DNA of 63,924 nt, filler included, from Eremomyces bilateralis CBS 781.70 (GCA_010015585.1; 7 parts of 7 records of this genome joined end to end with filler, not necessarily neighbours in it), one strand, 5' to 3'; counted from the whole stretch's first letter, positions 1-63,924 are shown. Numbers and translations: made by a program. Notes: a model not told the origin generated them from the sequence alone.

Positions 1-206
1 AGTTATAAAGATATAGAGATTTGGTCTCTAAATCTTGCCAAGAAGTAGGTATCTCTATACCTGTAAAAGCTAGGGCTTTAATATTTCAATAGTAGGCTAG
101 AAATGGCTAGGAAAACCTAACTCTAAGTTTTCAGACTATATTATCCAGTGGTTGTTGAGATATTGATATCGAATTTTGTCGAATTTACTATTTTAAACAA
201 AACGAC

Positions 207-264
207 GGCAGATTGACCTCCGTTTTTGGAGGTTTGTGACGCCGTTTTTGGAGGTAAATCTGCC
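207..264. repeat. Imperfect inverted repeat enclosing a 14-bp direct repeat, upstream of the captain gene
   Basis: GGCAGATTGACCTCC (207-221) vs GGAGGTAAATCTGCC (250-264), 1 mismatch as an inverted pair; CCGTTTTTGGAGGT at 220-233 and 242-255. Confidence 0.75.
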
Positions 265-705
265 ATGCTCCAGCGCCAATGAGAACTCCCCTTACTCTCC
301 GACATGGATCTCGCTGACATGGATCTGAGCCATGCCCCACCAACTTGAGTCCCTGTCGGCCTGTCCTTTTTTAGCTCCGCTCTGACCTAGAGCATGCGGC
401 GTCCAGTTTTCAGTATTTCGTTTTCCAACTCTGCTTTCTTTTGCTCATCCTCTGGCGTCTAAAGGGCCAGAAGAAGGGCCAGAAATGGCCCTCCAACAGA
501 GTCCGCGACGTTTACTTAAAATGGCGTCGCCCTCTTTCTCTTCGCGTTCTTCGAATCGTTGTCTTCTATTCTCCCTACTGTGTTTACTACACAACCTCAG
601 ACTATTGTTTGCTCTAAAGATCTTGCATCTCTTCCCTTTCGTTCTCGCATACGCCTTCGCCTCTCCGGCACTTTCACCGGCGTTGGAGCCTGCGAATAGG
701 ACTCC

Positions 706-3136
706 ATGCGTCGCCGTACCGTGGACGATTCCTGGTCTGATGGAGACAGTACCAGCTCGCAATCGGACGACTCGTCGACATACCGAACGAATCTGAACGA
801 TACGCCGGATACATCAGGCTGTGACTCGGACGCAGACCTTAACAGGGAGTCAGCATGGCTACTCGAAGGCAATGAGCATCCACCAGAGTACTACAACCAG
901 CTGCTGGATAACTTTGACGACTCGGAGTATACCAAGGAGGATTATAGCGATGGCACTACCGTCCTCCTCGACCGAAGCGAAGCGCAGTGGAACCAGTAAG
1001 TAGCATGACCTTCTCTTCTATATTGCTATTTCTCTGACGCTGGATAGATACTGTGCCTATACCGGAAAAGACCCCAAGAAGATGTACCAGGCCATATCAA
1101 TCAACGTATTGCACAACTTTTTCCACTGGCTGCTCAGCCAGCGCCGCGGGAAGGAGGGACGGCGACTTCGAGGGACCAAACTGGCCAGTTCTTTGGGCAC
1201 ATACTGGAAAATCTATCGGCTTACGTACGAGCGAGCCACTGGCGATAAGATCAACGGTCCGACGACGCGTGGGATGCATAAGGTATGAAAACTCGTGCCG
1301 TAGTATCAACGGTCCATTTTAACGCTGTCTTTCAGGTGCTGCGAAAGCTGGCGAAGAGACACGGATTGAAAAAGGGAGCCAGGGAAAAGCCGTGCATGTA
1401 TGTCGAGGATCTGAAAGAAGCGCTACGGACAAATTTGTGCGCAGTTGAAAAAAAATACTCACATGGGAGAATCCGGATTGGGGTGCAGCTTTTCATGCAA
1501 ATTGGGGGCTTTACGGCTAATCGTCCTGGGGCATTACTTAACCTCTGCTACCGACATATTAGAGTCACATTGCTGCGAGACCCCGAAGGTGGGCCGAATC
1601 GGATTCTCCTTGAATTTTCATTCGAGTTTACAAAGAGCTTCCTTGGTATCAAGGACATGTACGTTAAATTTCCTTACATTTCCTCCCTTACAGCTACTCT
1701 TCCTTTTATACATCCTACTTACTAGTACACAGAAACACATTTCCGATCCCAGAGATCATATATGATCCGTCTTTAATCTACAGCCCGCACGTGCTCCTGC
1801 TAGGTCTGATTTTCGACGATCAAGCTTTCGCAGCACCAAGCCTTACCTCTCCGGATCAGCTCAGCATGCTGGATATCGAGCCAGGCCAGAACCAACTACT
1901 ATTACCGCTACGATCTGACCTAGACGATGTTCCGATTTTCCGCAAAGCTATTAAAACGCCAGAAGGATGGGAGATATCAAAGGACGAGCCTCTAGAGTAC
2001 TCTACCATCCGGTATGCGATGAAGAGAGTCGGCGAGCTCACTGGGTTCAAGTTGCTTCTGCGCCCATACGCACTCCGATATGGTGCTGGAAAAGCTTTCA
2101 ACGAAAACGGTATGTGGCCTACCCTTATGCTCTATTTGGCTGATGCGAGTGGTGTTCTTCTGTAGGCAACGTCAGCGAGGCGCTCCAAAACCTGATGATG
2201 CAGCACGGTGATCCGCGGACGTTCTTAAAACACTACCTCCATCGACGAGTAACAGTAGATGCGGCTGCAATTGTGCGGCGAGTCCAGCCCCAAGACGCAG
2301 TCATGCAAGCTGCTTGTAACATGAGCCGATGGATTGACCCGAATCGACCCTGGGGCCTTACCGCAGAGCAGGCAGACTCGGTGAACCAAACCCCTCTTAT
2401 TCGTTCCCTTCTGCAGGATCGGGACAGACTGAAGCGCCGCTACAGTCCGAAGCATATTAAGTACATTGAACACAATAAGAGGATTATAAGTGAAAAGCAA
2501 CGCCTTCGGGCATCACTTCTTGCAGATATTCAAGAGAAGTATGAGAAGGAAGGCCCAGTACGAGCGATTGAGCAGCAGCTGTCGGGCGTGAAGATCAGTC
2601 AAAAGCCAATAGTTGCGTCCTATTTCACGACCAAGACTCTTCCCGAACAGAAGCGATTGATCGAGGCGCTCATACTTGCCCCACCAGGGAACACTCTCGA
2701 GGAGGAGTTCCGGCGGCGGAACGAGGCCATCATCGCCGTTACAGAGTACTGCAAAATCGAAGAAGGCGATACACCCAAAAGCCAAACGCGGCCTCGAGGC
2801 CAAATGAAGCGCCTGTCGATCAAAAATGAGGATGAAGACCGATCAGCAGCGCCCGTTAAGCTAATAGAGAAAGAAATAGAGGCCGCTATGCTATCGGTCT
2901 TTAAAGATAAGCGACCGACGATATGTTTTCTTTGTCTTGGTAACGTCGCTTTACCGCTTGCTATACGAGTCTATTCCTTTAGCACTTCCTCTGATCTTGG
3001 CAAGCACTTTCGGCGGAAACACCTGTCTAATATTACGGACGGCGAGAGGATTGACTGCAGGGTTTGCAAGATGTCACTCAGCTGCAAGATGCACTTGCAA
3101 AGCCACGCGAAGAAGATACATGGGACGGTGTCGTGA
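706..3136 (+). CDS. DUF3435 tyrosine recombinase (Starship captain-like) with C-terminal C2H2-type Zn motifs; 5 exons (706-995, 1048-1282, 1336-1658, 1733-2109, 2166-3136)
   Basis: Four GT..AG introns join the track ORFs in frame (Q|YCAYTGKDP, K|VLRKLAK, I|NTFPIPEIIYDP, G|NVSEALQNLMMQH). Family-typical motifs HPPEYY, FTANRPGALL, RPYALRYGAG, MMQH..RTFLKHY (R..R..H..Y catalytic set) and C-terminal CFLC...HFRRKH / CRVC...HAKKIH. Confidence 0.9.
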
Positions 3137-5303
3137 ACTTCGATACTGAGTTATCGAATCTTGGTACGCTGGTTGAAGCGGCCGCGTTACGATTGAGGAA
3201 CAGTCATTTCTTTGTCACTGTTGGGTCCGATTCGAAGTATATTCGCGACTTTGCAGCTAGTCTCTTATTTACGTTTCTAATGACAGTAAGGTTCATCTGG
3301 TGTACGAAATCCTTTGATCAAGGGAATCTACATGCGAGACGTGATTGGATTCGAAAGGTGTGATAGAGTCAGAGAGATGGTAGCTTCTGTAGCGACAAGG
3401 TTTGGGGAAAATCTACTTTAAAGTGAGCCGTTAAGGATGTCTACGAAGTCACATAACTTGATGAAGCCGGTAGCTCCATTAGAAACAATTCGGAGATAAT
3501 TCCCAGCTAACCAGAGATAACTCTCCATAATTTATAGAATAGGGTTGTACTACTGCGCTATTGTGCTAAGTTACTGTAAGGAAATAGTGGCGTAGATGAG
3601 AGATTATGGTGATATCATCCTCGTTCGTACTATTGATGGAAACTGTTCCAGACATCACTGCCACCCTACCCTGTAATTCCGACTCCTGCAGTGCTTCTCC
3701 TATGAGGATGTTTTTGACATATACCCAAGGTTGCCACTTAAACGACCAAACACAAGGGAACCGCATTCGCACCAAACATATCAAGATGTCTTTATCAACC
3801 ACCATGCCCATCACAAGCATGTCCTAACCGAAAATATATGCGCTGATACTATCGGGTGAGACCAGAAATGGATTCAGGGCGGCAGTTCACACGGACTCCG
3901 GGGTGTCTGAAAAGTGAAAACGGATACGTTTGATTCCGGGTGGGGCCAGAAATGGACTACTCAAGGGAATTGCAAGGGCCTATTGCCGAAACTTTTTAGA
4001 TCCCCTTCCGGCTCCCAGAACTAGGGAATCTTGTTTAATGATGTTTTGGGACAAAATCTGTACCCAACAGCAAGCAAGGAAACACAGTCTACATGACTGA
4101 TATTGGCCTGATCCGTGTTATTATGCGCCGCTACCCCGTCGGCACAAGCGCAGTACTGTTGCAACTCCAGGCAGGGCCAAGGTAATCCTCTGCCGCTCCC
4201 CGGCAACGCAAGAAATTCGCTAACCAGTCTCCCGCAAACACAGCTTCAACCTCGTCTACTTCGAGCGGAACGAGAAGCTCTGTGTTCTTCCCAGTTCTAG
4301 TACCCGAATTTAGCAGGCAGCTCATTCACCATCGCTACGTTTGCGAGCGATTTAAAAGAGACGGACACTTACTTCGTCATACGCCATGATAGTGCCTGCT
4401 ACCGCTATCAGCTCGACTATGAAGCAAGAAAAGACTATGGCCATAGAGTGCCTCGAGAGGAGCTCTCGAAGTTGAAACCCCCGACAACCTCATTAATCAC
4501 TCCAGTGCAGTAGAAAGGATTCAGTCTGTTAGCTTGGCGTCCTCTCGTCTAAAAGAGAAGAGCCGGGCGCTTTCGTATACCAAATCCATCACTCTCAAAA
4601 CCCCGCCGTTGCTCTGTTTGATTGCGTTGGTTGACAACTCTGCCCAGCCAGCCTCTGGCCGTTGGTCCTCTACAACACGGTCCGTCGCATAAGACGCCTT
4701 TACCTAATTACAAACCTGGCTGATCGGCATTTCTATCTAGAAAGAGCCTGGTACCCGTCATGCTTCTATAAAATGCTCATCAAATCTCTAAACTCCGACA
4801 ATTCCAGCGGTAAGTTGCCGGCCTCGCTTCAATGCCTTAGCGATAACGGATACGGCTACGGGAAGTGGCCACGGCAAAGGGCCTGCTTTCAATACAGTAA
4901 GATGGTTTTCTAATAAATTTATGCCAGTTCCCGCCGCTCGCCGAAAAATGCATTTCCTATTTCGGAGTTACCAGCCTCAGTGTATAAACGGATCACCTCA
5001 CCGCTACTGCGCCCTCCCTTTCGCTAGGCGACGGAATTGGTCATTCTAGAGATATGTGCCGATATTTCAAATTAATAGAACAAACGGAGCAACGCACAAT
5101 CCCGTTTTTCACTCTGCTTCCGTTCAACACTTTTGGAGGCTAGGCACGAATCTAGCTTGTAACCCCATGATATAAAGGTCACCTGCTGGAAGGAAGAAAA
5201 ATTGTCATGGCGTAAATAGGAGCTTTCATGATTCTTAGCCGTTGACCTAATCGGCCTCGTTTTTCCTGATCAGTTTCTACATTTGATTTTCAATCACCTC
5301 AAT

Positions 5304-7581
5304 ATGAGGGGCCCGGGGTCAAAAATCAGCGGTATGGCCAATCCGGCGCTCCTGAACAAAGTTGACAAACTGTTTGCGAGCGGAGTTGGAGAATACGTAT
5401 CTCTCCCGCAGATTGTGGCCGTCGGAGACCAGTCTAGCGGTAAAAGTTCTGTTCTTGAAGCATTAACCGGTCTGCCTTTCCCAAGGGACAGTGATCTCTG
5501 CACCCGGTTCGCGACGCAGATTAGGTTCTGCCGGGCACCAAAAGCGGAGATTTCGATATCCATCATTCCGGCCAGCGGCAGCAGCGGGGAGCATGCCGAA
5601 GCATGCACCGCCTGGTCAAAGCCCGGCCTCGAGGACCTGGACCCAGAGACATTTTCTAGCATCATGAGAGAGGTTCGCATATCCATCTGGGTTCCTTCTA
5701 TGGCTAACGGCTTTAGGCACATACAATTATGGGGATTGATGGCGGAGTCAGCTTTTCCGACGACGTGCTCTGTATTGAAATATACGGGCCGGATCAAGAG
5801 CACTTTTCGGTTGTTGATGTCCCCGGAATCTTCAGAAAGACCACCGAAGGGGTCACAACCAAAGCGGACAAGATTAAGGTCGAAGCGATGGTCCGGCGAT
5901 ATATGGAGAATCCCCGGTCTATCATTCTGGCGGTCGTTCCTGCCAACGTGGATATTGCAACACAAGAGATCCTGACGATGGCTGAGGAAGTGGATCCAGA
6001 TGGGCACAGGACTCTTGGGGTCCTGACCAAGCCGGATTTGGTTGACAGAGGCGCTGAATCGGCGGTGATTTCCCTTATTGAGGGCAAAAGGCACAAACTG
6101 ACCTTAGGATGGTGCGTTGTTCGCAATCCTGGGCAAAGTCAGCTAGAGAGTTCATCTGTTAACCGAGAAGCAATCGAGACGGCCTTCTTCCAGGATAACC
6201 CTCCTTGGAATACTCTTGAGAAGGACAGGGTTGGCATCGGTTCTTTGCGGCTTCGGCTGCAGGAGATTCTCGCCAGTAACATCCGTCGCGAGTTTCCAAA
6301 GGTGCGTAGAGCCCCCGGCATTCTTAAGCGATGCTAATCCTGCCGCAGGTCAAAAATGAGATCCATAAGAGGCTCAATGCCTGCAGGGAGCGTCTCGACA
6401 ACCTCGGCGCAAAAAGAGAAACGGCGGATGAGCAGCGTCAATACCTTTTGGGTATAAGTGAACGGTTCCAAAAATTCGTGATGTCCGCACTCTCTGCAGA
6501 TTACGTGGGCGATGATTGGTTTGATAAGTCCCCAAACCTTCGTTTCGCTACTGCGGTCGTGAACCGCAATGAGGCTCTCGCGAAAATGTTGGCACAATAC
6601 GGTCACTCGTATACTTTCGACGGAGAACAACGCGTTAGCTCAGAGGACGGAGATGAAGGCGACAGCTCAGAGGACAGAGATGACAATGACGAAGAAATCG
6701 AACGGAAACTTTCAGTCCGAGCCCAGAAGGACCCCGAAGGCTTGGAAGAGCTGCCGCCTGGAGAGAACATGATAGTTAGCCACACTCCTCGGGGTATTTT
6801 CAAGTGGCTATCAAAGGTCTACGGGACGTCGCGTGGTTTTGAGCTCGGTACCTTTGATGGTTCGCTTCTTGCTATGACGATGAAGACTCAGTCGTCTAAA
6901 TGGGAGCCAATCGCCGTCGGCTACATCAAGGATATAATCAGTATGGCGCATACGTTCGTCCGTGACTTATTGCATCTAGTCTGCCCGGATCTCCGCGTGT
7001 GGGAAGGTCTCATGTCGGTCCTTATGGATGAGCTCTTGGCGAAGTATAAAGCTGCGCTCGACTATGTCCATTTCCTCCTCCGTGTCGAGAGGGCCGGAAC
7101 GCCAGCGACTCTGAATCACTACTTCGCCGATAACCTGGAAAAGTGGTAAGTCTATTTATCCCGTTTTTGCATCAGCCGCTTATGATTTGCCAGCCGCCAA
7201 AAGCGCATTCGCGCTAAGCTGCAAAAGAAAGCCTTTAAAGATATCGACGGAAAACTTGTTGTCAGCCTTGAAGACATTGTACAGAACCATCACACGTCTA
7301 ATGTCGAGCATGTCGTCCAAGAGATCCATGACATCCTCCAATCCTACTATAAAGTCGCCCGCAAGCGCTTCGCGGACAATATATGCATGCAAGCAGCGGA
7401 CCATCATATCGTGACAGGGCCTTGCTCCCCGCTGAGACTCTTTGGCACGGCTTTCGTGAGCCACCTGTCCGATGAACAGTTGATGGATATCGCCGGGGAA
7501 GATGCAGCCTCACGAATGAAGCGTGCTACTCTGACTAAGGAGATTGCAGGTCTTGAAGCTGGAAAGAAAATTGTATCCTAA
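5304..7581 (+). CDS. Dynamin/Mx-like large GTPase (fungal accessory dynamin family); about 4 exons, start codon uncertain
   Basis: G1 LPQIVAVGDQSSGKSSVLE, G2 CTRFAT, G3 DVPG, G4 TKPD; C-terminal GED-like region (YYKVARKRFADNICMQAADH). Introns at about 5673-5716, 6302-6348 and 7146-7193. Confidence 0.9.
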
Positions 7582-7660
7582 TTCGGATTGTATGTACTGG
7601 AGCTAGGCAGTTCGGTGTTTGAGTAAGTTCGCATTACCATATAACTACCGTCTTTTGGTA

Positions 7661-8230
7661 CAGTAAGTGGACATAAGTCTGTGCACACCTCCCAAAATCT
7701 TGAAAATGGCCCACCAGCCACCTTATCTTGCGAAACGCTCAAAAACGTAGAGAAACTCATAGATATTAAAAAAGTTTTATTTCCAAATCGGGTAATACCT
7801 AATACTTCGTATGCCACCCTTTTGCTCTAATTACAGCCTGCAGACGTCGCGGAATTGAATCAATTAGTCGCTGGATCGTCTCCTGAGGGATCGCCCACCA
7901 CGCCTCCCTTAACGCCTTATTCATGGCCTCCCGTGCCTCCTGCGATGAACCCATCTGTTTTAATTCGGGGTGGAGCTTAAGGACTTTCGATTTCAGCAGG
8001 TGCCACATATGCTCGATGGGGTTAAGGTCTGGAGAATTAGCCGGCCAATCGATCACCCAGACACGCTTACCACCCGCCCCTTTCTCGTAAGAGCACTCGT
8101 CTGTGGAGTGGACCCGAGAGAAGTAGAATTGCTCGTTCTCTCGGGCGAATTTCAGCCGGTTTTTCGCGTGTTGGGCCGTTAGATAGGGCCACTGGCGTGC
8201 CACCCACTTCCTAATTCCCTCGCATACATT
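7661..8230 (-). mobile_element. Tc1/mariner transposon remnant with an internally deleted DDE transposase and one terminus
   Basis: ORF 7799-8203(-) has TDECSY and WPANSPDLNPIEHMW...IPRRLQAVIRAKGWHTKY, with the middle of the catalytic domain missing. TA|CAGTAAGTGGAC at 7659-7672 resembles a Tc1 terminus. Confidence 0.8.
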
Positions 8231-9113
8231 TGCGGTCAGGTCGCAAGCCTTTCCATCCTGGCTATGTTCTTCGGTCTGACAATCCTCTTCTGATGCTAGG
8301 TGCGATAGAGGCTACAGAGCAGGATTCACATGTATCGTGATCTCCTTTGGGCAGACAGGGCAAGGGAAAGTTAAGACTAGCTTCGAGGGCATCTTAAAGG
8401 GACAATGCAGCTTTGGCCAGTCATCTATTATGTATTTATCTACTACTCTAGGCTCTCCGTTTCAGGGTAACAGTATGTAAACGTCGGCTCCGAGATACAC
8501 TTTAAGAGCCATGCAGCGCAGGTTCACAATATATCCTTGTGGATATCACTGTCTCATCCACCCAGAGAAGGCTGGGTGAGTCATCCATGTGGTACTACTA
8601 TAATGTTTGCTTGTTGATCTGAAGACCGATCAAACATAGAATTGCAAAATAATACATGTAAAACAGTCTCCCTTCTTTCTTTGCTCTCTCCTCTTTATAT
8701 TTGGTTTGTCTAGGAAATGGCATTCAGCTTCTTTCCAGAATGTATCAAAGATAAAGTAAACTTACACACTTTTCTGTTTTGCTGTCTTATTCTTAATCCT
8801 GTCGCTTGCTTTTCCGCCATGCCTGTTTCAACAAGTTGGACGAGTTAGACAATAACTCACTCATTAACCTCATCAGAATATCCAACTTCGATAGGCTGCT
8901 GGATGGAGGATTGTTGTCTGTTGGAGTCACTTCTGGCGCAAGCAGGCTGCACTGTTTGACTCCGAAAGAGATTACATATGTCAAAGAAAATGAGACATGC
9001 ACGTCCGCGTTTAGGTCGCACGACAATCAAGTCTTGCCGCTTCCAGATGATTTATAACTGTTGCATCAACTACTCCAGATCTTAACTTGAAGGGCAGTTG
9101 GAGCTGACACATA

Positions 9114-9754
9114 ATGGAGGTTAATTGCGAGACCTGCGATCGATCTTTCGGTAGCAAGGAGGCCCTAGAGCAGCATCTACGCTACTCCTCGGCTCATCAA
9201 CAGGCCCCAGAAACTCCTTTAGATGCGTTCTTCCGGTCTTTCCCAACCTTTAGTTATGACCCTTCCCTACCACCAGCCACATCCTACGCCAATTTGCGAA
9301 AACACAAAGGTTGGCGGCCCGGCGATGCCTCGAACGATGCTTGGAGGAGATACCAAGATGCATTAGAAGGCGAATTGCGGATGTGGTATGGAGCAGAGGA
9401 CGACTTGACTGCGTGGCATGCTCTTTGTCGTGCCATTGGCATCGAACCGCTTCCACGAACATGTGGGCAATGTGAAAGGGTATAGATCCGTCATTCCACG
9501 AAACTTGGCGCCCTTCTGCTAACTCAGGGTATAATTAGGCTGTACGAAGGACACATGTCAATATTGTTGATTTGATTGAGTGGGGACGGAAACGTGGAGA
9601 CAAAGAGAAAAGAGTGCAGACATTTCAGACGGTGGCAGAGCTGCGAGAGTATTGCAGCAGAACGGGCAAGATATTCAGCAACACAACCGATCGGAAAGAC
9701 AGCAACGTTGTTCTGAGACATCTACTTCGGAAGCTCTTAGGAGAGAGTTCCTAG
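9114..9754 (+). CDS. Small protein with an N-terminal C2H2 zinc finger and an uncharacterised fungal domain; intron 9480-9538
   Basis: CETCDRSFGSKEALEQHLRYSSAH; WHALCRAIGIEPLPRTCGQCE spliced in frame to AVRRTHVNIVDLIEW. Confidence 0.75.
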
Positions 9755-10712
9755 AATAACAGAGAGAATAATGAGACGTCAGACAACGCGTCTTTGAGGC
9801 TGGTTAAGTCGTTTCGTCCGGGAACAGAGGAACAGGGCAACCATACCTATGTAATTTTTGTGTGGAACGGCTCTCAAATAGTAAGCAGTAGCTACAGAGC
9901 ACATTGAGCGTAGTACTCTAAATCTACCATGTGTGTATGTTTTCTGCTGCTCAGAAATCGGAGTACCATGGATTTGTTCCAGGCCGCAGGGCCCTGGCAT
10001 ATGGATATGGATATCCTGGTGGGCCTGGTACCTTAGGCGTCCTGGCACAGGTGTCTTGGTACCACCCCTTCAAGCTTTCACAGCCATCCTGCCGAAATCA
10101 GCGCACCGAGAACCTGTTCCACGTTGGCGATAATTACCACTTTTGAGCTGGAGCTGCGTAGCTATACCGTTAGACGTCCGCTCGCTAGTCCCCTAATACC
10201 GTCTGCACATGACCTTGCCAACCTCGCAACCTCGCAAACCGTCTCCGCAGTCATGCCACCGTTCTAAGTCGAACATGTTTTTCAAGCCTATACGGCTCGC
10301 AGTCTTCCCTAGAACTCGAAGTCGGCTTCGGCACAGACAATGAGACGCAGGTATTTGAACCCAACTCCGATAGGTACAGAGATCTACCAGGGTCCGACCT
10401 ACCTACCTGCTCTGACCAATGACAGATCTCTATCGGACGTGCCCAGATGAGTGTCGCGTGTGAGGTGGACATGCAAACTTCCAGCAATCCAGCTGTGAGG
10501 CTGCGAAGCCTGCCAAGCTAAGCTGTGACGGTGCCAAGCTGCACAGTGGTGATGATACTGCTGTTGTTGCTGTTGCAAATGCCTCTTGTCAGAACATCTT
10601 CCCGATCTTTCAATGTCACCTTTTCGAGCTGGAGCGAATGATCCTACGAAGACTATTACGCTCTACGAGTTTCTGCATGGATCTCGCAGGCCGTTTCGAT
10701 GTTGGATTAATC

Positions 10713-11800
10713 ATGGGCTCGGAGGCTCCAGTAAGGTCCCGACTTGTTTTGCATGAACGTCATGGCTAATAACCTTTCCCCAGGGTCAGACTAAAGCCGA
10801 GGCGGCCAGAATCGAGCTCGATCGCATAACCAGAATCAGAGATGCCTTGAACGATAAGAAATTGGTGGTTGTCATTGGGGCTGGAGTGACACTGAATGTA
10901 ACAGCGTCTCAGTCGGGTAAAACACTGGATCGGCTGTCTTGGCTAGGATTGATACGACATGGCTTGAACTACCTCGTTAAAGACGACTATATCGACAAGG
11001 ACGACTACAGACTCCGATATGCACAAGAGATACTCGATTTATATCCCGGAGATCTATTAGAGGCAGCACGAGTATTAAGAGCTCTCTTGGACGAAGCCCG
11101 TCAGTTCCCTACTTGGTTGAAAGCTGTTTTTGGAGGACTTTCCAAAGAAGTGAGGCATCGTGCCTTGCTGGATGTATTGAAGTCTCTCCACGAGAGAGGA
11201 GCGATGCTGCTAACAACAAACTACGATGATCTCTTCGAAGAAGGTTACTGCGAATTGCGCCGTATCAGCCGGTCGAATCATGACGATCTCCTAAAGTTCC
11301 AAAGTGGAGAATTGCGCGGTATCCTTCATGTGCACGGCAGCTATCATGATCCCGCAGACGTCATCATAGATGCAACGGACTACGAGAACGTTCAAAGCTC
11401 GGACATCAAGACTGTGCTGAGGACGCTCTGGAATACTTACACGATTCTGTTTGTTGGCTGTGGATCCGGATTAGAAGACCCAAACTTCGGCGCACTATTG
11501 CAATGGGCATGCGACGACCAGAAGAATATCTCAAATCGACATTGTGTGTTGCTCAAGACCGGAGATCCTTTCAACCCCAAACCTCTGGTGCGGTTAAAAT
11601 TTGGCCCGAACTATTCAGATCTAGTGCCTTACTTGCAGCGGCTACTTAGTGAACAGGAAACAGACGATCCAATAGACGCCACGGCCCCATCTGGAGCGGA
11701 GGCAAATTGGTGGATTGGGAATGGAAAAGCCCAAACATTCCTCCGAGCGCTAGGGAAGCTTTGGAATGCTACGAGCTGTGGAATGGCACGGGAAAGATGA
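10713..11800 (+). CDS. SIR2-like (SIR2_2) domain protein, probably C-terminally truncated; exon 10713-10730, intron 10731-10783
   Basis: VVVIGAGV, LLTTNYDDL, ILHVHGSY and ILFVGCGSGLEDPNF motifs. The ATG mini-exon splices in frame (GTAAG...GCTAAT...CAG). Confidence 0.85.
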
Positions 11801-11910
11801 ACTTTGGAATGCTACGAGCTGCGGAATGCTACGGAAGGATGAGCTTTGGGAACACTACGAGCTTTGGAGCGTTACGGGAGAGATGAGTTTGGAATGCTCC
11901 GAGCTTTGCT
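11757..11910 (+). repeat. Degenerate tandem repeat (core CTTTGGAATGCTACGAGCT) overlapping the SIR2 ORF end
   Basis: About 4 copies of roughly 40-43 bp units with sub-repeats GGAATGCTACG. Confidence 0.75.
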
Positions 11911-13023
11911 CTGAAGGCACACAGAGGATTGGAGGGCAAGAAAACTGGTAACCTCCCCCCCGGCGTGATGGAACACCCGCCGTGCTGGAACGAAATCGAG
12001 CTACTTTGACTTCAAACCAGCCCAAAGTGTACAGGCATACTGTAATTCTTATAATTTCATATTCGCTAGATTTTTCAGTCACTTTAAAATATGCGAGACT
12101 TTGTGAAACACAAAATTACAACTGCCTGGTTGCCGGTGAGCCGATCGTAACGCGGCACTCGGAATACAACTTCAACGGCGAGACCGTTCTCTCTATGCTA
12201 CAACGCTACCACCATCGTATTCTCTTTTCAAAATTTTGTAAAATGGACAAACTCACCTTATATTATCCTTTTATCGTGTACAAATCTTTTGTCTATATGT
12301 TCGTGTTGTGTTAGAAACGATTTCAAATCTTTCCATCACGCCGGCCAGTACCTGTGGCCGATCAAACTTCTGCTTCAAAGTTCAAACAGTCACGGGAAGA
12401 TGGCATAAGTTATTTTTCCGTAAACCGGCGCTGTCGAGTCACTCTCTAATTCTCTAGGCATCTAGCCTTGGCAGACCAACGCCTTTTAGTTGGGACAGAA
12501 CTCCCCTGTGTGGATGATCTCGCGTCCAAGCCCAGCAACAACACGAAGCCAGCAACATCACTTCCCACCACAGCTACTGAGGTGCAGTACAGTACGCATG
12601 ACGAATGCCCAAAGATTTGAATCGCCTTAGAATAATGTTTGGTTGCACCTCCTGTGCCTTCACGCTACAATCACCACCAAATTCTACTTCCATAACATCA
12701 GGGTTGCATTCGCAAGAATCTAAGATTGACGAACTTGCGAAACTCCAGCAGATTCCAGAAGACATTGCGATATGTAATCCGATACGAGATTTATTCGTCC
12801 GCTAAAGTCAATCAAAGTCGTCCTTCAGCCTTCAACCACACCAATGCTAGCCGCGGGCGACAGCATCCTGTCGCTATCTACTTTCCTCGATTTTGCGAGC
12901 TTTTCGTCGCTGTGCGAGCCCGTCGTTGTTCCGCGTTCCAATCCGCCAACATATTTGAGGAAGAACGGAAGAGATGATAACTGACTCCCAAAGCCTGTCT
13001 TTGGAGCTGTACACACTCCTTCA

Positions 13024-13257
13024 TTAGACTGATAACTCAGCATCCTGACCCTGCGCTCCGTACGTCGACGCCAGGTTGCCATGATGATCAGCGTGTGTGG
13101 ATGCTCCGCGCCAAGCACACTCTTTTCCCTCCATCACTCGCACGTCCAGCTTTTCAGCCTTGGTTCCGGATGTCGACGCCAGATTGGCCATGCTGGCTAC
13201 CGTGTGTGGATACTCCACACCAAGCACCCTCGTTCTCGTCTCTAGAAACCAATACAC
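13024..13257 (-). pseudogene. Degenerate TPR (kinesin-light-chain-like, NLR-type) repeat fragments
   Basis: RVLGVEYPHTVASMANLAST and LGAEHPHTLIIM lie in different frames. Confidence 0.65.
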
Positions 13258-13458
13258 CCTGGTTCAGGCCTGTTAGACAGAATTTGGTAGAGAGAAGCGA
13301 GTGCCCTCTCCGGTCTTAGTCGATTGGGATGGTCTTCTGCTGCAGTTTCACGTCGGCCTCGCATCGTACCTTTGGGTCGTAGATTGCTGAATTGAACTGC
13401 ATCCCGCCATGCCCTTGTTAATGCGGCAGGCCGACACCGCCGGAATTGGAACTGGACC

Positions 13459-13864
13459 TTAGCGACAAGCACGGACAAAATGCCGGAATGTGCATTTGGT
13501 GTTAGTACAGTTGGTATCATACCGACAAGCACGCACAGAATGCCGGAATGTGCATTTGGTGTTCGTGCAGTTGGTATCATACCGACAAGCACGCACAGAA
13601 TGCCGGAATGTGCATTCGATCTTGGTGCAGTTAATATTATACCAACAAGGTCGCTGAGACGAGAATGCCGATACAGAGGAGGCAGGTATCTTCTTAGCCT
13701 CCTCGTGCTTGCCTTGCTTGGTGTACATCGATGCGAGAGCTGCCATGCTCCGGATCGTATCTGGATGTTTATCCCCAACCACTTCTCGCTGTAGGCTAAT
13801 GACTTCGATATACCTCTTCTCGGCCTTATCGTGCTTGCCTTGCTTGGCGTATATCGATGCGAGA
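13459..13864 (-). CDS. 3' end of a TPR-repeat (NLR-like) gene terminating in three CCCH zinc fingers; 5' part lost in the gap
   Basis: VVGDKHPDTIRSMAALASMYTKQGKHEEA followed in frame by CWYNINCTKIECTFRH and 2x CRYDTNCTNTKCTFRH. Confidence 0.7.
13465..13645. repeat. 60-bp tandem repeat x3 encoding CCCH fingers
   Basis: Sequence lines starting at 13501 and 13561 are nearly identical. Confidence 0.9.
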
Positions 13865-13964
13865 NNNNNNNNNNNNNNNNNNNNNNNNNNNNNNNNNNNN
13901 NNNNNNNNTTAATTAATTAANNNNNNNNNNNNNNNNNNNNNNNNNNNNNNNNNNNNNNNNNNNN
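13865..13964. other. Artificial assembly spacer (N44-TTAATTAATTAA-N44); same spacer at 26773-26872, 39556-39655, 54289-54388, 61106-61205, 62780-62879
   Basis: Six identical 100-nt N blocks with a six-frame stop linker. Confidence 0.97.
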
Positions 13965-14272
13965 CATATTAGCGTTTTTCACCAGACAGAAGCATGGGCA
14001 TGTAAAAAAAAAATCAATTACGAGATAGAGCATACTTTAATACACAATTGATTGAATTTTGGAGTACACAGGTCGTGTTTTGATGTAGTTATTGATGGAT
14101 TGTGATTTTGCCAAACGGACAGACACACACACAAAACACTAGAAAGTAAGAGCAGAGCAGTGCGGCTGATGGACAGCGTCCTCAGGCTATCTATCAGAGG
14201 AGTAGTTTAAGTAACGTGACTGTCCAAAAAAGGCTAGACTCCTCTGAGAGATAGCCTGAGCTAGCTGAGGTA
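13965..14272. mobile_element. Right terminus of a DNA transposon related to the Academ-type element end at 49109, with a subterminal hairpin
   Basis: Hairpin CTCAGGCTATCT.TCAGAGGAGT / ACTCCTCTGAGAGATAGCCTGAG (14181-14260), then CTAGCTGAGGTA. Patchy similarity to the reverse complement of 49109-49340. Confidence 0.6.
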
Positions 14273-14741
14273 AGGTTGACACTTGACACTTCACACTTGA
14301 GTCCTTGAGTGACCTTGACAAAGTGAGTTCAGAGTTCAGACAGACGTTGACTAAGAGTCTAAGACCCCGCTGACAAAGAAAGACTCGGCTGACTGAGAGG
14401 ACCACTGACGCCATCTATCACCAACCGACGTCATTCACCTCCGGGCTTTCAACTTTGGTGAAGTTTGAAGGGTAACACCGAATTTCATTCCCCATCGATC
14501 CACATCTCACCCAGAATCTTCTTCTCGCACACATTTGATAGACCCCGTTTTCATCTTGTCTCATCTTCTTCTCTACTTTTCTCCATTTGATGCCTCTGTT
14601 GGATTCAACCCCTAGCTCATTTCTCCTCTCAGGTATGCCTGATCAGTTGATTCACCTTTCCTTTTTCTCCTCCTATAGTTGACACCGGAAACTACGAATC
14701 CTATTACCGTCTAGCGGCATCAGGACCTCTCTATCTCCCTC

Positions 14742-16478
14742 ATGAGTGAATCCCCGACGAGCGATCATGACCAGATGCAGCGCGAGGCTGACGTCGTTGC
14801 ACGGCATCTCCCCGAAGGCTATTCGGCCGGCATTGATGCCATCAATGACAATGACCATCCATCTTCCTCTGCTCCTCAACTTTTCCAGCCTAACGGGGAA
14901 TCCTCCCTTAAACTGCTAGGTGGTGATGTCCACCGTGCCCTATTCAAGATCAAGGACCGGCCCAAACTCCACCAGCGGTCGGCCACCTTTGCTCATCCCA
15001 GTCCTCGAACCCCCCAGACTTTCCCGGTCCCCGAAAACACCATCAGTGCAACCGAGCAATTGCAACCTGGTGGGTTTCGACGGGAGTTTGTTCTACAACG
15101 CCAAGATACCGGGCTGCAGGAATTCACCCAGATTACAAAGAGCTTCGTGTCCTTCCTAGAACTTTTTGGCAGTTTCGCCGGCGAAGACCTGGCTGAATCC
15201 GAAGAAGAATATGCTATCGAAGATGAAGAGGCGGTTGAGGAAGGAGAAACGAGGCCTTTACTCGGCCGGCGGAAGCTCTCGCGCCGGGTTTCCAGAGTGG
15301 GCGATGCCGGAATGGTGAAGTCGTTCTTCACGCTTTTGAAAGCCTTCATTGGCACTGGTATCCTATTTCTCCCCAAGGCGTTCAAAAATGGTGGGATACT
15401 GTTCTCATCGATCACTTTGGTCGCGGTATCGGTGGTCTCCTGTATCTGCTTCCGCTTGCTTCTCCATTGCCGGAAACAGGTCGGGGGAGGCTATGGGGAC
15501 ATCGGGGAAGCCATTGCCGGATCGAAGTTTCGCACCCTCATCCTAGGATCCATCTTCCTTTCACAGATTGGTTTCGTCTGCGCGGGCATCATATTCACGG
15601 CCGAAAATGTCGATTCATTCCTCCGAGCGGTCCTGAAGGGCAATAATCCGATGTCGACCAATGCTCTGATAGGGTACCAGCTCATTCTCCTGATCCCTCT
15701 TACTCTGATCCGGAATATCTCCAAGCTCGGACCTGCTGCACTTCTTGCGGACGTGTGCATCCTAATTGGACTGGTCTATATCTGGTGGTTTGACATCTCC
15801 ACTTTGTCAACCCAAGGATTCCATCCATCAGTGGAGCTGTTCAACCCGAGTAGCTTCACCCTCACGATTGGATCCGCGATTTTCACATTCGAAGGAATCG
15901 GCCTCATTTTGCCTATCCAGTCATCCATGGCTGAGCCGCAGAAGTTCGACCGGCTTCTATACCTAGTCATGGGGATCATCACAGTCATATTCACATCAGT
16001 GGGCTTCTTATGCTACGCCACCTTTGGCGAGAACACACGAGTGGAAGTCATCAGCAACTTTCCTCAGGACAACAAACTTGTGAACGCCGTCCAATTTCTT
16101 TATTCGCTTGCTGTCCTCGTAGGAACCCCCGTGCAACTCTTTCCCGCTGTCCGTATCATCGAGACCTCGCTCTTTGGGTCACGTTCCGGGAAACAAAACA
16201 TTTGGACCAAATGGAGAAAGAATGCATTTCGAACGGTCCTGACTATTGCTTGTGGCCTGATTTCCATCGTAGGCGCAAAGGATTTAGACAGATTTGTTGC
16301 CCTGATTGGCTCATTTGCGTGCGTACCTTTGGTCTACATATATCCCCCATTCTTACATCTTCGGGGCGTCGCGGACTCGAGGGCCTCGAAAGCATTTGAT
16401 CTTGCTCTCATGGCGGTCGGAATGGTAGCCATGGTGTACACCACCTGTATTACTATTTTCCAGTGGTTTAAGGCTTGA
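14742..16478 (+). CDS. Vacuolar amino acid transporter (Aa_trans family, AVT3/AVT4-like)
   Basis: SLKLLGGDVHR, PGGFRR, FLELFGSFAGEDL, FFTLLKAFIGTGILFLPKAF, IFTFEGIGLILPI; about 11 hydrophobic segments. Confidence 0.93.
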   Translation: MSESPTSDHDQMQREADVVARHLPEGYSAGIDAINDNDHPSSSAPQLFQPNGESSLKLLGGDVHRALFKIKDRPKLHQRSATFAHPSPRTPQTFPVPENTISATEQLQPGGFRREFVLQRQDTGLQEFTQITKSFVSFLELFGSFAGEDLAESEEEYAIEDEEAVEEGETRPLLGRRKLSRRVSRVGDAGMVKSFFTLLKAFIGTGILFLPKAFKNGGILFSSITLVAVSVVSCICFRLLLHCRKQVGGGYGDIGEAIAGSKFRTLILGSIFLSQIGFVCAGIIFTAENVDSFLRAVLKGNNPMSTNALIGYQLILLIPLTLIRNISKLGPAALLADVCILIGLVYIWWFDISTLSTQGFHPSVELFNPSSFTLTIGSAIFTFEGIGLILPIQSSMAEPQKFDRLLYLVMGIITVIFTSVGFLCYATFGENTRVEVISNFPQDNKLVNAVQFLYSLAVLVGTPVQLFPAVRIIETSLFGSRSGKQNIWTKWRKNAFRTVLTIACGLISIVGAKDLDRFVALIGSFACVPLVYIYPPFLHLRGVADSRASKAFDLALMAVGMVAMVYTTCITIFQWFKA

Positions 16479-17045
16479 AGATCCAATAAATTATCTATTA
16501 TTTTTCATTGTGTCACTGATCTCGCTGGATATTAAATCGAGTTTCCTTGTCTCGAATACTCAGTCAATCTGGTGGTGGCCAGGATGGCAGTACTTACAAT
16601 GGATCGGTCCGCATACTGCTTTTCGACGCCTACCACCAACCTTTGCCTGCAAAGCTGCTTTATGACGTCGTCGCCGCCGCCGCCGCCGGCGGATTCAGTC
16701 GGCTCCTTATCCAAGGAACCAGAGACGTCAATGACAGAATGTGGTACTGGCGCAGACCGCTGTGCGCTGGGGAACCCATCGCCTTCACAACTTGGCACGG
16801 AAGGGGCATAGAAACTTTCACTCAATTCCGTCGTGGGGTGATGAATTAGTGTGTGTAGCCATCACTCAAGTTGTGTGACGGAGCATGGATGCTCTTAATC
16901 TTTGACCTTAGAACGTCATTCCTCATGCTTTAGCGATGGATCCAAGGGACGTGGTCAGAATAGCATGTTACATTCCTCATAAACCGCGTCTCTCTCATCT
17001 AATACATGCGACTCGGGGTCATCGATTGGTAACAGCGTATGGGAA

Positions 17046-62879: not shown

Positions 62880-63631
62880 CATTCCTTACGGAAATGCCTC
62901 AGATCCGCCAAAACGCCTCCCAATCGCGTACGATTCGACACGCTTTTCAAGAGAGGGGTCTCTGGCCATGGGATCCTGAGCAGATCTTACCCATCCTTCG
63001 GCAACAGGTTGATGAAGACGTCGAGGAGCTTCAGATATTTAATGGCTCACCGCCACCGTCAAGTATTACGGCAACACCAAGCGTATCTCCACCAAATACT
63101 ATCCGTACAGTACGCCGGAGGCAACAGAAGATCATAAATACGCCTGAGGCCCTGCTTTCTAGCCGGAAATACCAACGTCGAGTTCGCCAAGCCACGGAGT
63201 CATTGATCAAGACAGTCGAGGAGATTGAGGCGTATAAGGAGTCGGTTTCAGCCATACAGCGCCAGCAGACTAAAAAGAGTCGCCGCCAGGTTCGAACAGG
63301 ACTTAGCCAGACTGGTGCCTTATACGTTGGTGAGGCGAAACGCTATATCGACGCGCGTGGTCAGAAGGAGCGTGAGGCGGTAATCAGGAAGGCACAGCGG
63401 GACTGGCAGCAGGAAAAATCGCAGGAAACGCATCAGGCACTATCTCCTATACTTAATCAACCTGCTAGTACGGAGGATCTCGGTTTTTTTATCGATTTGC
63501 GTTCTGAATCTGGATAGATACACGATGGTAGCAAATTTGAGCTTTTGGTGTGGGTTGAGCGTTTGGTGTGGGAGCACCAACAACCGGAGGTTGTGGGGCG
63601 GTCATGGGGCACGGATAGTTAATACTGCGTA
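62880..63631 (+). mobile_element. 3' part of a pogo/Fot1-like transposon (transposase C-terminus 62880-63517 and probable right end)
   Basis: TIRHAFQERGLWPWDPEQIL, SPPNTIR and a basic coiled-coil tail; GGTGTGGG repeats and ...CTGCG|TA at about 63630. Confidence 0.68.
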
Positions 63632-63924
63632 CGAGCTGCGGCTTACACTTCTCTCTTTTCTTCCTTAGCTTTACCTTCTCTCAGATAGCCAATTGATGCT
63701 TTCGCCATCAGGCCCCTCACACGAACCCGTATTAAGACTAAGGGTCTCTCTACGCCTTACTTCTTGGTCCCCCTTCTTATTATCCTCTTTATCCTCCCTC
63801 TTTACTTCCCGTTTATTGTTATCGTTGTTAAGGGCCCAAACCACAAAGGATTTGGTAAGCTGGTAACGCTGTTGAATTGCTAAAGAGAGAAGGAGAAGAT
63901 CTCTCTCACTGCGATCTGCTATTT

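What the first reader, a model, noticed from the sequence alone, without database searches (positions are those of the whole stretch)
185..13864. Probable Starship left end: intact captain followed by a cluster of immunity-type cargo
Seen: a complete 5-exon DUF3435 recombinase begins about 500 bp after a switch from AT-rich, RIP-like DNA (1-150). It is followed by a dynamin GTPase, a C2H2 protein, a SIR2-like protein and TPR-repeat genes, with no core genes until after the gap. Known: Starship giant transposons have the captain as first gene and often carry NLRs and dynamins. Inference: this is a Starship, or a derelict one, whose cargo mirrors bacterial defence effectors (SIR2 NADase, dynamin). 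The right end cannot be placed because of the gaps.
Basis: partly seen in the sequence, partly recalled or inferred. Interest (0 to 1): 0.72.

Follow-up and report, generated by a model that had tools for sequence, protein, structure and literature searches.

The report
Complete Starship splitting a miniature transposon
This is the left end of a complete, recently inserted 71.5-kb fungal "Starship" giant transposon that landed inside a small repeat, carries a working-looking recombinase gene and several immunity-type genes, and may supply the enzyme for many small enzyme-less relatives in the same genome.

Summary
A real Starship, and complete rather than derelict. Window 1-13,864 is scaffold G000:C23; the window beyond the gap comes from other scaffolds, so "core genes after the gap" is an artefact. 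Bases 1-189 are not a RIP relic of this locus but a young 424-bp MITE, cut at TTACT. Its missing tail is the genome's only unpaired MITE end (1 of 23 matches), at C23:71,728 on the same strand. This fixes a 71,538-bp element with a direct repeat, 17/20 asymmetric inverted repeats, and an empty site supplied by intact MITE copies. The 731-aa captain is intact, spliced in one run and Prometheus-family by its paralog. About 6 of 16 Pfam-named cargo genes are immunity-type, but their roots are eukaryotic: an Mx-like dynamin, an orphan SIR2 effector domain of a fungal NLR family, a patatin-NB-ARC-TPR NLR, HET. Of 21 related left ends, only this one has an intact captain, and seven captain-less 2.6-9-kb elements share both ends. 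The scan noted such minis earlier on other DNA of this genome. Movement itself is untested.

The parts
1..189 (.). Inner part and most of one terminal inverted repeat of a 424-bp TA-flanked MITE (Tc1/mariner type, inferred from the TA flanks); the target into which the Starship inserted. Its last 55 bases sit at G000:C23:71,728 onwards.
   Evidence: 10 of 11 intact copies are 424 bp, 1 is 372 bp; TA on both sides in 11 of 11; 1-2 mismatches in 190 to 7 copies; orphan tail
184..190 (+). Left direct repeat TTTACTA (family core TTACT, 185-189); the same 7 bases end at C23:71,728; intact MITEs hold one copy
190..13864 (+). Left 13.7 kb of a 71,538-bp Starship (G000:C23:190-71,727, counting a 1,947-N scaffold gap at C23:13,865-15,811)
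   Evidence: one left-end and one right-end motif in C23:1-90,000
202..221 (+). Left arm of an asymmetric terminal inverted repeat, 12 bases inside the direct repeat; 17 of 20 bases match the right arm at C23:71,698-71,717
   Evidence: conserved across family left ends
706..3136 (+). Captain: DUF3435 tyrosine recombinase, 5 exons, 731 aa; conserved R238, K275, Y395, R398, H422, Y432; C-terminal zinc-finger-like Cys/His motifs
   Evidence: all four introns joined out in run X3
4070..4930 (+). Spliced transcript with three GT..AG joints and no long open frame found; unexplained
5304..7581 (+). Dynamin-superfamily GTPase, 4 exons, 712 aa, G1/G3/G4 motifs present, GED domain; closest solved relatives Mx1/Mx2; 93% identical copy on C8
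7626..8311 (-). Tc1/mariner transposase remnant (DDE_3, HTH_Tnp_Tc3_2); 7626-8214 is absent from the C8 copy of this block
9114..9754 (+). 193-aa gene with one N-terminal C2H2 finger, one intron (9480-9538); an Ascomycota family of unknown role
10677..11800 (+). SIR2-like (SIRim-type) protein, 356 aa, one intron (10731-10783); GxG at 50-52, N164 and H202, no zinc-binding cysteine tetrad; no NACHT domain follows, unlike 5 of 7 paralogs
13462..13864 (-). 3' end of a patatin-NB-ARC-TPR NLR (starts near C23:18,490, spans the gap): last TPRs, then three tandem CCCH-type fingers in the same frame, then a stop
   Evidence: (TPR_12 E=8e-15, zf-CCCH_2 E=5e-13)
12830..13270 (-). Degenerate, frameshifted TPR remnants left downstream of the NLR stop
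   Evidence: read by eye; no Pfam hit for the three frames tried
13865..13964 (.). Artificial linker (N44-TTAATTAATTAA-N44); window DNA beyond it belongs to other scaffolds and is not part of the element

Best explanation
A complete, young Prometheus-family Starship of about 71.5 kb inserted into the terminal repeat of a MITE. Shown: both ends, the direct repeat, asymmetric inverted repeats, the empty site (intact MITE copies), and an intact, spliced captain. Inferred from the Hephaestus model: the captain binds the two inverted-repeat arms, recombines the short TTAC(T) cores, excises the element as a circle and reinserts it at AT-rich WWACT-like sites. The right-hand TTTTAC belongs to the element and the left-hand copy to the target. 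The cargo is a mixed accessory load that includes a recurring set of fungal non-self/cell-death and antiviral-type genes (patatin NLR, HET, two PigL_N genes, an orphan SIR2 NADase domain, an Mx-like dynamin); their most likely role is regulated cell death or virus restriction in fused hyphae, which is inferred from family membership only.
For: Only 1 of 23 MITE-tail matches is unpaired, and it lies on the same scaffold and strand and begins at the base where the left MITE part stops. Both halves belong to the same MITE subfamily (1-2 and 0 mismatches to seven copies; 5-6 and 5 to three others). The end sequences recur with unrelated flanks at 21 left and 18 right sites among the loci fetched, and similarity stops at the repeat. 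Captain. Family: paralog P0122, 634 of 753 aligned positions identical, is listed as fam05 = Prometheus, a family reported to insert into AT-rich DNA and other TEs; flanks here are 68% and 66% AT. The NLR spans the scaffold gap with an 85%-identical TPR unit on each side. No RIP signature in 190-13,864. Cargo.
Against: No second isolate, so presence/absence between strains is untested; the empty site is a paralogous MITE copy, not an allele. One 1,947-N gap lies inside the element, and the MITE's far end is cut off by the scaffold start. No family tree was built; the family rests on one paralog. The catalytic region (394-463) has pLDDT under 50 in the model, so catalytic roles are assigned by conservation and spacing only. 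No circle junction appeared among the loose ends shown (45 more were hidden). Immunity-type genes are about 6 of 16 named cargo genes, a HET gene also lies just outside the right end, and no enrichment test was run. The dynamin transcripts seen match the C8 copy at 14 of 14 sites checked, and the SIR2 gene may be a truncated NLR.
Confidence: 0.92

Rival explanations
1. The element is the one autonomous member of a family: its captain also moves, in trans, the short captain-less elements that share both ends (an addition to the best explanation, not an alternative to it).
For: Captain-like sequence follows only 4 of 21 left ends within the 2.6-4 kb read (C23, C5, C16, C10). C5 has a frameshift near residue 553, a second disrupted stretch near 170-190 and a 15-residue duplication at the catalytic Tyr; C16 and C10 are fragments. 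Seven left/right pairs enclose 2.6-9.1 kb, six with no captain trace, with different cargo (hybrid histidine kinase, fungal kinase, UstYa-like). C16, whose captain is internally deleted, is 99% identical over 2,524 bp to a C35 copy that shares the deletion and ends at the same base with an unrelated right flank. Excision of an engineered mini-Hephaestus was selected in a strain that also carried the full element; whether that mini lacked a captain I did not see.
Against: Each short element is single-copy apart from C16/C35, and the C35 copy lacks its left end. Pairing is by proximity and strand, with no empty sites. Ends are only 77-97% identical to this element's. Two of the 21 stretches read held 1.2-1.3 kb of N. 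Other DUF3435 genes in the genome (46 matches) were not all checked for integrity or ends.
Confidence: 0.4
2. The short elements are derelicts that shrank in place after insertion, and the C23 element is simply the youngest survivor of many insertions.
For: Captain-less 'Derelict' regions are described. C16 keeps captain remnants; three of the seven keep 1.3-3.2 kb of the right-end region at 79-88% identity. A captain-less, end-less copy of the dynamin block lies on C8.
Against: Both ends are kept intact in seven cases while everything between is lost; the C16/C35 pair points to a move after captain loss.
Confidence: 0.5
3. The cargo is a defence island of bacterial origin.
For: SIR2 model folds like ThsA and DSR2 and hits PADLOC Dsr1 (E=4e-13) and ThsA; the patatin hits PADLOC phospholipase effector profiles.
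Against: All named hits among the best 120 SIR2 relatives are fungal; 1 weak match in GTDB genomes; the gene has a spliced intron; paralogs are NLR N-termini, an architecture already reported for fungi. Dynamin is closest to Mx (E=3e-32) ahead of Vps1 (1e-24), and fungal MxF proteins are ancient; its only PADLOC hit covers the P-loop (E=3e-4).
Confidence: 0.05
4. The 71.5-kb span is a scaffolding accident or two unrelated events; only a captain-bearing left end is real.
For: A 1,947-N gap lies inside; the span holds an RNA-polymerase-subunit-like gene and a BCS1-like ATPase.
Against: Split MITE halves match in register and subfamily; the NLR spans the gap; the polymerase-subunit-like gene has a 73%-identical paralog on C16; housekeeping-like genes resume only outside, from about 75.7 kb.
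Confidence: 0.04

Closest known systems
Prometheus-family Starships (family 5 of Gluck-Thaler and Vogan 2024, PMC11162782)
   Same: Captain 84% identical to a protein listed as fam05; insertion into AT-rich DNA and into another transposable element, as reported for the family.
   Different: The family's published direct repeats could not be compared (supplement cut before that table; 'Prometheus' not found in the held part). The catalogue lists 15 recombinases and no delimited element for the species named on the identical database proteins.
Starship Hephaestus (family 2; PMC10104507; bioRxiv 10.64898/2026.09.21.753150)
   Same: Inward-facing 5' captain, TTAC-containing direct repeat, element-borne copy of the target core; this one empty site even reads TTAC(N7)A.
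   Different: Different captain family; the A after N7 is present in only 7 of 18 right flanks here. Hephaestus is shown to move through a circle; this element is not tested.
Starship auxiliary genes PLP and NLR (bioRxiv 10.1101/2021.12.13.472469)
   Same: Patatin-like and NLR/HET cargo.
   Different: No DUF3723 or ferric reductase hit among the 82 of 113 frames scanned; the NLR here ends in three CCCH fingers.
SIRim proteins: fungal clade A SIRim-NLRs, human FAM118B/SIRanc, bacterial ThsA and DSR2 (bioRxiv 10.1101/2024.09.18.613514)
   Same: SIR2_2 domain, GxG and xxNxD motifs, catalytic-type Asn and His, no zinc tetrad, same fold.
   Different: Stands alone here, without NACHT or repeats; 14-26% identity to the solved proteins listed; activity untested.
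Swordfish Starship of Zymoseptoria tritici (PMC11231334)
   Same: A roughly 68-kb Starship with a SIR2-family gene as cargo.
   Different: That gene is described as a Sir5-derived deacetylase-family sirtuin, not an immune-type SIR2, and the element has probably lost mobility.
MxF fungal Mx-like dynamins (PMC11789081)
   Same: Closest solved relatives are Mx1/Mx2; patchy multi-copy fungal family.
   Different: Membership not tested by phylogeny; antiviral role of MxF is itself uncharacterised.

Membership tests
Starship | DUF3435 tyrosine recombinase as first gene, pointing inward | tested here: met
   ATG 516 bp inside the left end; Pfam E=1.3e-136; best folds are Cre, E=1.2e-4
Starship | Catalytic R-K-(H/Y)-R-Y set | tested here: met
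   K275, Y395, R398, H422, Y432 invariant and R238 at 90% or more in 24 sequences; spacing like Sanctuary R260/K308/Y424/R427/Y458. By pattern only; region poorly modelled
Starship | Short direct repeats at both ends, one copy at the empty site | tested here: met
   TTTACTA at 184-190 and ending C23:71,728; single copy in intact MITEs
Starship | Terminal inverted repeats (occasional) | tested here: met
   17 of 20 bases, at unequal distances from the ends; 5 right ends were picked up by the left-end motif read backwards
Starship | Tens of kb of cargo | tested here: met
   71,538 bp; 16 Pfam-named non-TE genes plus a LINE and two Tc1 pieces
Starship | Presence/absence between strains | not testable with these tools
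   No relatives held for G000; run X4 (another organism code) gave no cover, which proves nothing
Starship | Active excision through a circle | tested here: inconclusive
   Contigs only; loose ends at 190 continue as MITE tail, as other MITE copies would give
Prometheus family (5) | Captain falls in family 5 | tested here: met
   Indirect: paralog P0122 (84% identical) is fam05; no tree built
Prometheus family (5) | Bias to AT-rich sites and other TEs | tested here: met
   Inserted in a MITE; 25-bp flanks 68% AT (21 left) and 66% AT (18 right)
Prometheus family (5) | Family direct-repeat motif | not testable with these tools
   Published table not in the held part of the supplement
Hephaestus family (2) | TTAC(N7)A target and family-2 captain | tested here: not met
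   A at that place in 7 of 18 right flanks; paralog is fam05
Derelict Starship | Captain lost or broken, RIP damage | tested here: not met
SIRim (immune SIR2) | GxG, xxNxD Asn, catalytic His; no zinc tetrad; SIRim fold | tested here: met
   against criteria read
SIRim (immune SIR2) | NADase activity on oligomerisation | not testable with these tools
   Needs an assay
SIRim-NLR (clade A architecture) | NACHT/NB-ARC and repeats after the SIR2 domain | tested here: not met
   No tblastn hit at E<=1e-3 of five paralog NACHT frames in C23:1-90,000
MxF dynamins | Groups with Mx in a GTPase-domain tree | not tested
   Only a similarity ranking against solved structures
Recent bacterial gene capture | Close prokaryotic relatives, no introns | tested here: not met

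The most novel reading that the evidence does not exclude
This element is the live 'mother ship' of a natural non-autonomous Starship system: its captain is the only intact one for a family of about twenty ends, and it moves captain-less 2.6-9-kb cassettes, each with one or two cargo genes, in trans, while itself shuttling a fungal immunity kit (patatin NLR with CCCH-finger tip, free SIR2 NADase domain, Mx-like dynamin, HET).
Probability: 0.35. Interest if true: 0.75.

Novelty: new member of a known kind. Interest (0 to 1): 0.5.

Why it matters
It gives a base-exact, young, transcribed Prometheus-family Starship with a defined target, so the family's target rule and crossover point can be tested directly with one circle-junction PCR. 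It shows that a split multicopy MITE can serve as the empty site, which lets boundaries be called from a single genome where comparative tools call none. If the captain also moves the short cassettes, Starships have natural MITE-like non-autonomous partners that carry single genes, a form I did not find described in four searches. The immunity cargo fits what is known of Starships (PLP, NLR, HET); an immune-type SIR2 and an Mx-like dynamin extend that list.

Tried and rejected
RIP relic at 1-150: the indices are RIP-like, but the stretch is 189 of 190 identical to four other copies, so any RIP predates the MITE's spread. Window DNA past the gap as right flank: rejected. Base 190 (A instead of the family's C) as a sign of target-derived heteroduplex: dropped, since the C5 paralog can be read with A there too. 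Dynamin expression: run X3's variants all match the C8 copy (14 of 14), so not counted. No run is on record as RNA; X3 is a guess, and contig depth was not used to rank genes. Bacterial origin of the SIR2 gene: 36 pattern matches, 1 weak relative. Relatives of the CCCH tip: none among 42 candidates of 236-2000 aa and no second copy in G000; weak evidence. The 'Omega-toxin' Pfam row on the Cys-rich repeat and a cytochrome P460 row below cut-off were taken as chance. My guess of an F-box gene in the C4 4.6-kb element got no Pfam support. A sequence search of the captain profile against solved structures found nothing below E=0.05. Published Prometheus repeats: not found in the held supplement. 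Scan look-ups near the finding, by captain sequence and by two word sets returned nothing.
Full report
1. What the window is. Window 1-13,908 is identical to the start of scaffold G000:C23 (365,953 bp). After that the window is a string of pieces joined by six N44-TTAATTAATTAA-N44 linkers. Window 13,965-16,500 is C25:1-2536, 62,880-63,924 is C95, and nothing past 13,864 matches C23:1-90,000. In the scaffold the gap is 1,947 N (13,865-15,811), the only gap in 90 kb. Database proteins identical to the captain and the SIR2 protein carry the source label Eremomyces bilateralis, a Dothideomycete; I cite the genome as G000.

2. Captain. Exons 706-995, 1048-1282, 1336-1658, 1733-2109 and 2166-3136 give 731 aa without an internal stop, letter for letter P0121. 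DUF3435 covers residues 198-603 (E=1.3e-136). In 24 aligned sequences K275, Y395, R398, H422 and Y432 are invariant and R238 nearly so, a pattern like the Sanctuary captain's R260, K308, Y424, R427, Y458 (PMC12506042, passages). The model's best structural matches are Cre recombinase, but residues 394-463 are poorly predicted. Contigs of run X3 (RNA by guess) join out all four introns at GT..AG; the two DNA runs show no such joints. This is one run, and contig depth says nothing on level. The paralog P0122 (634 of 753 identical) is listed as fam05 in the starfish supplement, which is Prometheus (PMC11162782, Table 1). I built no tree.

3. Left end. Window 150-700 found 40 scored matches in G000. 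One group begins at about 190 with unrelated DNA upstream. The other group covers 150-190 in inverted pairs: a MITE of 424 bp (10 of 11 copies; one is 372 bp) with TA on both sides in 11 of 11. Window 1-190 differs by 1-2 bases from seven copies and 5-6 from three. Intact copies read on GAATTTACT-AGTAAAATGAGC...; the window leaves the MITE at that point.

4. Right end. A pattern for the missing MITE tail gave 23 matches (control 0): 11 inverted pairs and one orphan at C23:71,729, plus strand. The junction reads ...GCCGTCGTCTCTTTTACT-AGTAAAATGAGC. The tail has 0 mismatches in 56 to the same seven copies and 5 to the same three. The shared stretch at both junctions is TTTACTA; the element is C23:190-71,727 (71,538 bp). 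Arms at 202-221 and 71,698-71,717 match in 17 of 20 bases. The sequence left of the orphan tail is itself a family end: 20 matches in the genome. Because the MITE copy is nearly identical to its sisters, the insertion is younger than a young MITE burst (inference). The element's first 13.7 kb shows no RIP signature (TpA/ApT 0.77; second index 1.20; thresholds recalled).

5. Mechanism. Among the loci fetched, motifs found 26 left-end hits, of which I dropped 5 as right ends read backwards, and 18 right ends. TTTAC minus its last base is fixed on the right: TTTAC precedes the final position in 18 of 18, and that last base is T 14, C 3, G 1; this is partly built into the search pattern. On the left the five bases before the end are degenerate (T15/A5/G1, T9/A8/C3/G1, A13/C4/T4, C18/T2/A1, T15/C5/A1 of 21). 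This fits the proposal that the element carries its own target-like core and that the repeats come from recombination, not duplication (PMC10104507, passages), and the circular intermediate shown for Hephaestus (10.64898/2026.09.21.753150, parts 1-2 of 4). Here the crossover seems to lie after TTAC rather than at TT//AC (inference). The A of TTAC(N7)A is in 7 of 18 right flanks, so it is not a family rule. Insertion into AT-rich DNA and other TEs is reported for Prometheus (section 23 and passages). That preprint also finds that 0.7-1.5 kb of 3' DNA raises captain expression in the circle; the last 1.3 kb is conserved between this element and several relatives, which would fit (inference).

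6. Cargo. I scanned 14 frames of the window, 82 of 113 frames of 105 aa or more in C23:15.8-79 kb and 19 more sequences. Named non-TE cargo, 16 genes: dynamin, C2H2, SIR2_2, patatin-NB-ARC-TPR NLR, P450 fragment, HET, DUF7587, TFIIS-type ribbon, DUF7924, kinase, BCS1-like AAA, APH, DUF7770, two PigL_N genes, Myb-like (C2H2, DUF7587 and Myb below Pfam cut-off). Nested TEs: a LINE with a 13-bp duplication (25,305 and 30,805) and two Tc1 pieces. Six of the 16 are immunity-type if PigL_N is counted as HeLo-like (recalled, no call). PLP, NLR and HET are known Starship cargo (10.1101/2021.12.13.472469, passages). A HET gene also lies just outside the right end; housekeeping-like genes resume from about 75.7 kb. 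The TFIIS-ribbon gene has a 73%-identical paralog on C16.

7. SIR2 gene. 356 aa, one spliced intron; GAG at 50-52, TTNYD with N164, HVHGS with H202, no CxxC pairs. Best folds: FAM118B (E=2.5e-12), ThsA, DSR2; PADLOC Dsr1 and ThsA profiles hit. These meet the SIRim criteria of 10.1101/2024.09.18.613514 (passages), which also reports fungal SIRim-NACHT-repeat NLRs. G000 has 8 copies; in 5 of the 7 paralogs a NACHT frame follows (58 of 97 frames scanned). None follows here. So it is an orphan NLR effector domain, either a truncation or a stand-alone partner of another NLR. Named relatives among the best 120 of 170 are all fungal, most hits being unnamed metagenome proteins; GTDB gave one weak match. 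Among the 15 of 111 papers listed for Starship/cargo/SIR2/NLR the only Starship SIR2 was Swordfish's, a Sir5-derived sirtuin (PMC11231334, passages).

8. Dynamin and NLR. The dynamin has intact G motifs and ranks Mx1/Mx2 first among 43 solved sequences, in line with fungal MxF proteins (PMC11789081, passages). A 93%-identical copy lies on C8 in a block with no captain or end motif; the transcripts seen belong to it. The NLR runs from about C23:18,490 through patatin and NB-ARC into the gap and out as TPRs, ending in three CCCH-type fingers; the frame across the gap is unknown.

9. The family. Captain-like sequence follows 4 of 21 left ends; only C23 is intact. Seven left/right pairs enclose 2.6-9.1 kb (C4 twice, C13, C16, C27, C31, C34), six without captain trace, with different cargo. 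C16 and a C35 copy share a captain deletion, 99% identity over 2,524 bp and the exact right end, but not the flank; C35 lacks the left end. This hints at movement in trans, but shrinkage in place explains most cases equally well. Earlier scan notes report captain-less minis on other DNA of this genome; I reached mine before reading them and did not check theirs. Searches for natural non-autonomous Starships (passages of PMC13004909 and 10.64898/2026.01.28.702382) found none, but the library is partial and only 20 of 3,246 papers were listed. Also read in passages without bearing: 10.1101/2025.02.28.640899, PMC12134995.

10. Verdict. New member of a known kind, unusually well delimited; confidence 0.92. 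The catalogue lists 15 recombinases and no delimited element for the labelled species; its supplement was cut when stored, and bioRxiv supplements were closed. Interest 0.5.

Noticed in passing
window 13462-13670 (-): The patatin NLR ends in three tandem C-x5-C-x4-C-x3-H fingers in frame with its last TPRs, with degenerate TPR remnants beyond the stop: a possible integrated RNA-binding domain. No relative found.
   Followed up: partly
G000 C4:47548-53855, C34:37524-44098, C4:1579754-1584341, C16:393778-397030, C27:121027-130129, C13:59891-66533, C31:59312-61933: Seven short elements with both family ends; six have no captain trace; cargo differs (hybrid histidine kinase, fungal kinase, UstYa-like, unknown).
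   Followed up: partly
G000 C16:394507-397030 and C35:46411-48934: 99%-identical copies of a captain-deleted element that end at the same base with unrelated right flanks.
   Followed up: yes
G000 C13:353034 (-), L065: A right end is followed directly by a left end (TTTTACT-CTTTTTAAAC...), the arrangement expected at a circle junction or a tandem insertion.
   Followed up: no
G000 C27:130129 and 121027: The one pair with C instead of T at the last repeat base has it on both sides, hinting that this base is copied or carried over; one case only.
   Followed up: no
G000 C15:74771: A family right end lies about 25 bases from an intact copy of the same MITE; several right flanks contain TTAACTAA-like runs also seen beside MITE ends.
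   Followed up: no
G000 C8:981538-988122: 85-98% identical copy of window 3394-9100 (dynamin block) without captain, ends or the Tc1 remnant; this copy is the transcribed one.
   Followed up: yes
window 4070-4930 and 10087-10137: A spliced plus-strand transcript with no long frame, and a minus-strand intron upstream of the SIR2 gene, in run X3.
   Followed up: partly
G000 C34:48k, C5:313k, C4:868k, C8:349k and 404k, C6:586k, C2:1015k: Family of seven more SIR2_2 genes; five head NACHT-WD40/ankyrin NLRs.
   Followed up: partly
L034:4101-7245 (C23:64.1-67.2 kb): Two convergent PigL_N genes near the right end.
   Followed up: no
L032:7722-8225 (C23:47.7-48.2 kb): RNA-polymerase-subunit-like TFIIS-ribbon gene inside the element, 73% identical to a copy on C16: likely a captured host gene.
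   Followed up: partly
G000 C5:504337 (-), L062: Sister element, 88% identical over the captain region, with a broken captain followed by a HET-NB-ARC-TPR NLR; right end not found in 29 kb.
   Followed up: partly
window 13965-14280: Start of scaffold C25 is another multicopy repeat of about 310 bp (18 matches, 80-100%).
   Followed up: no
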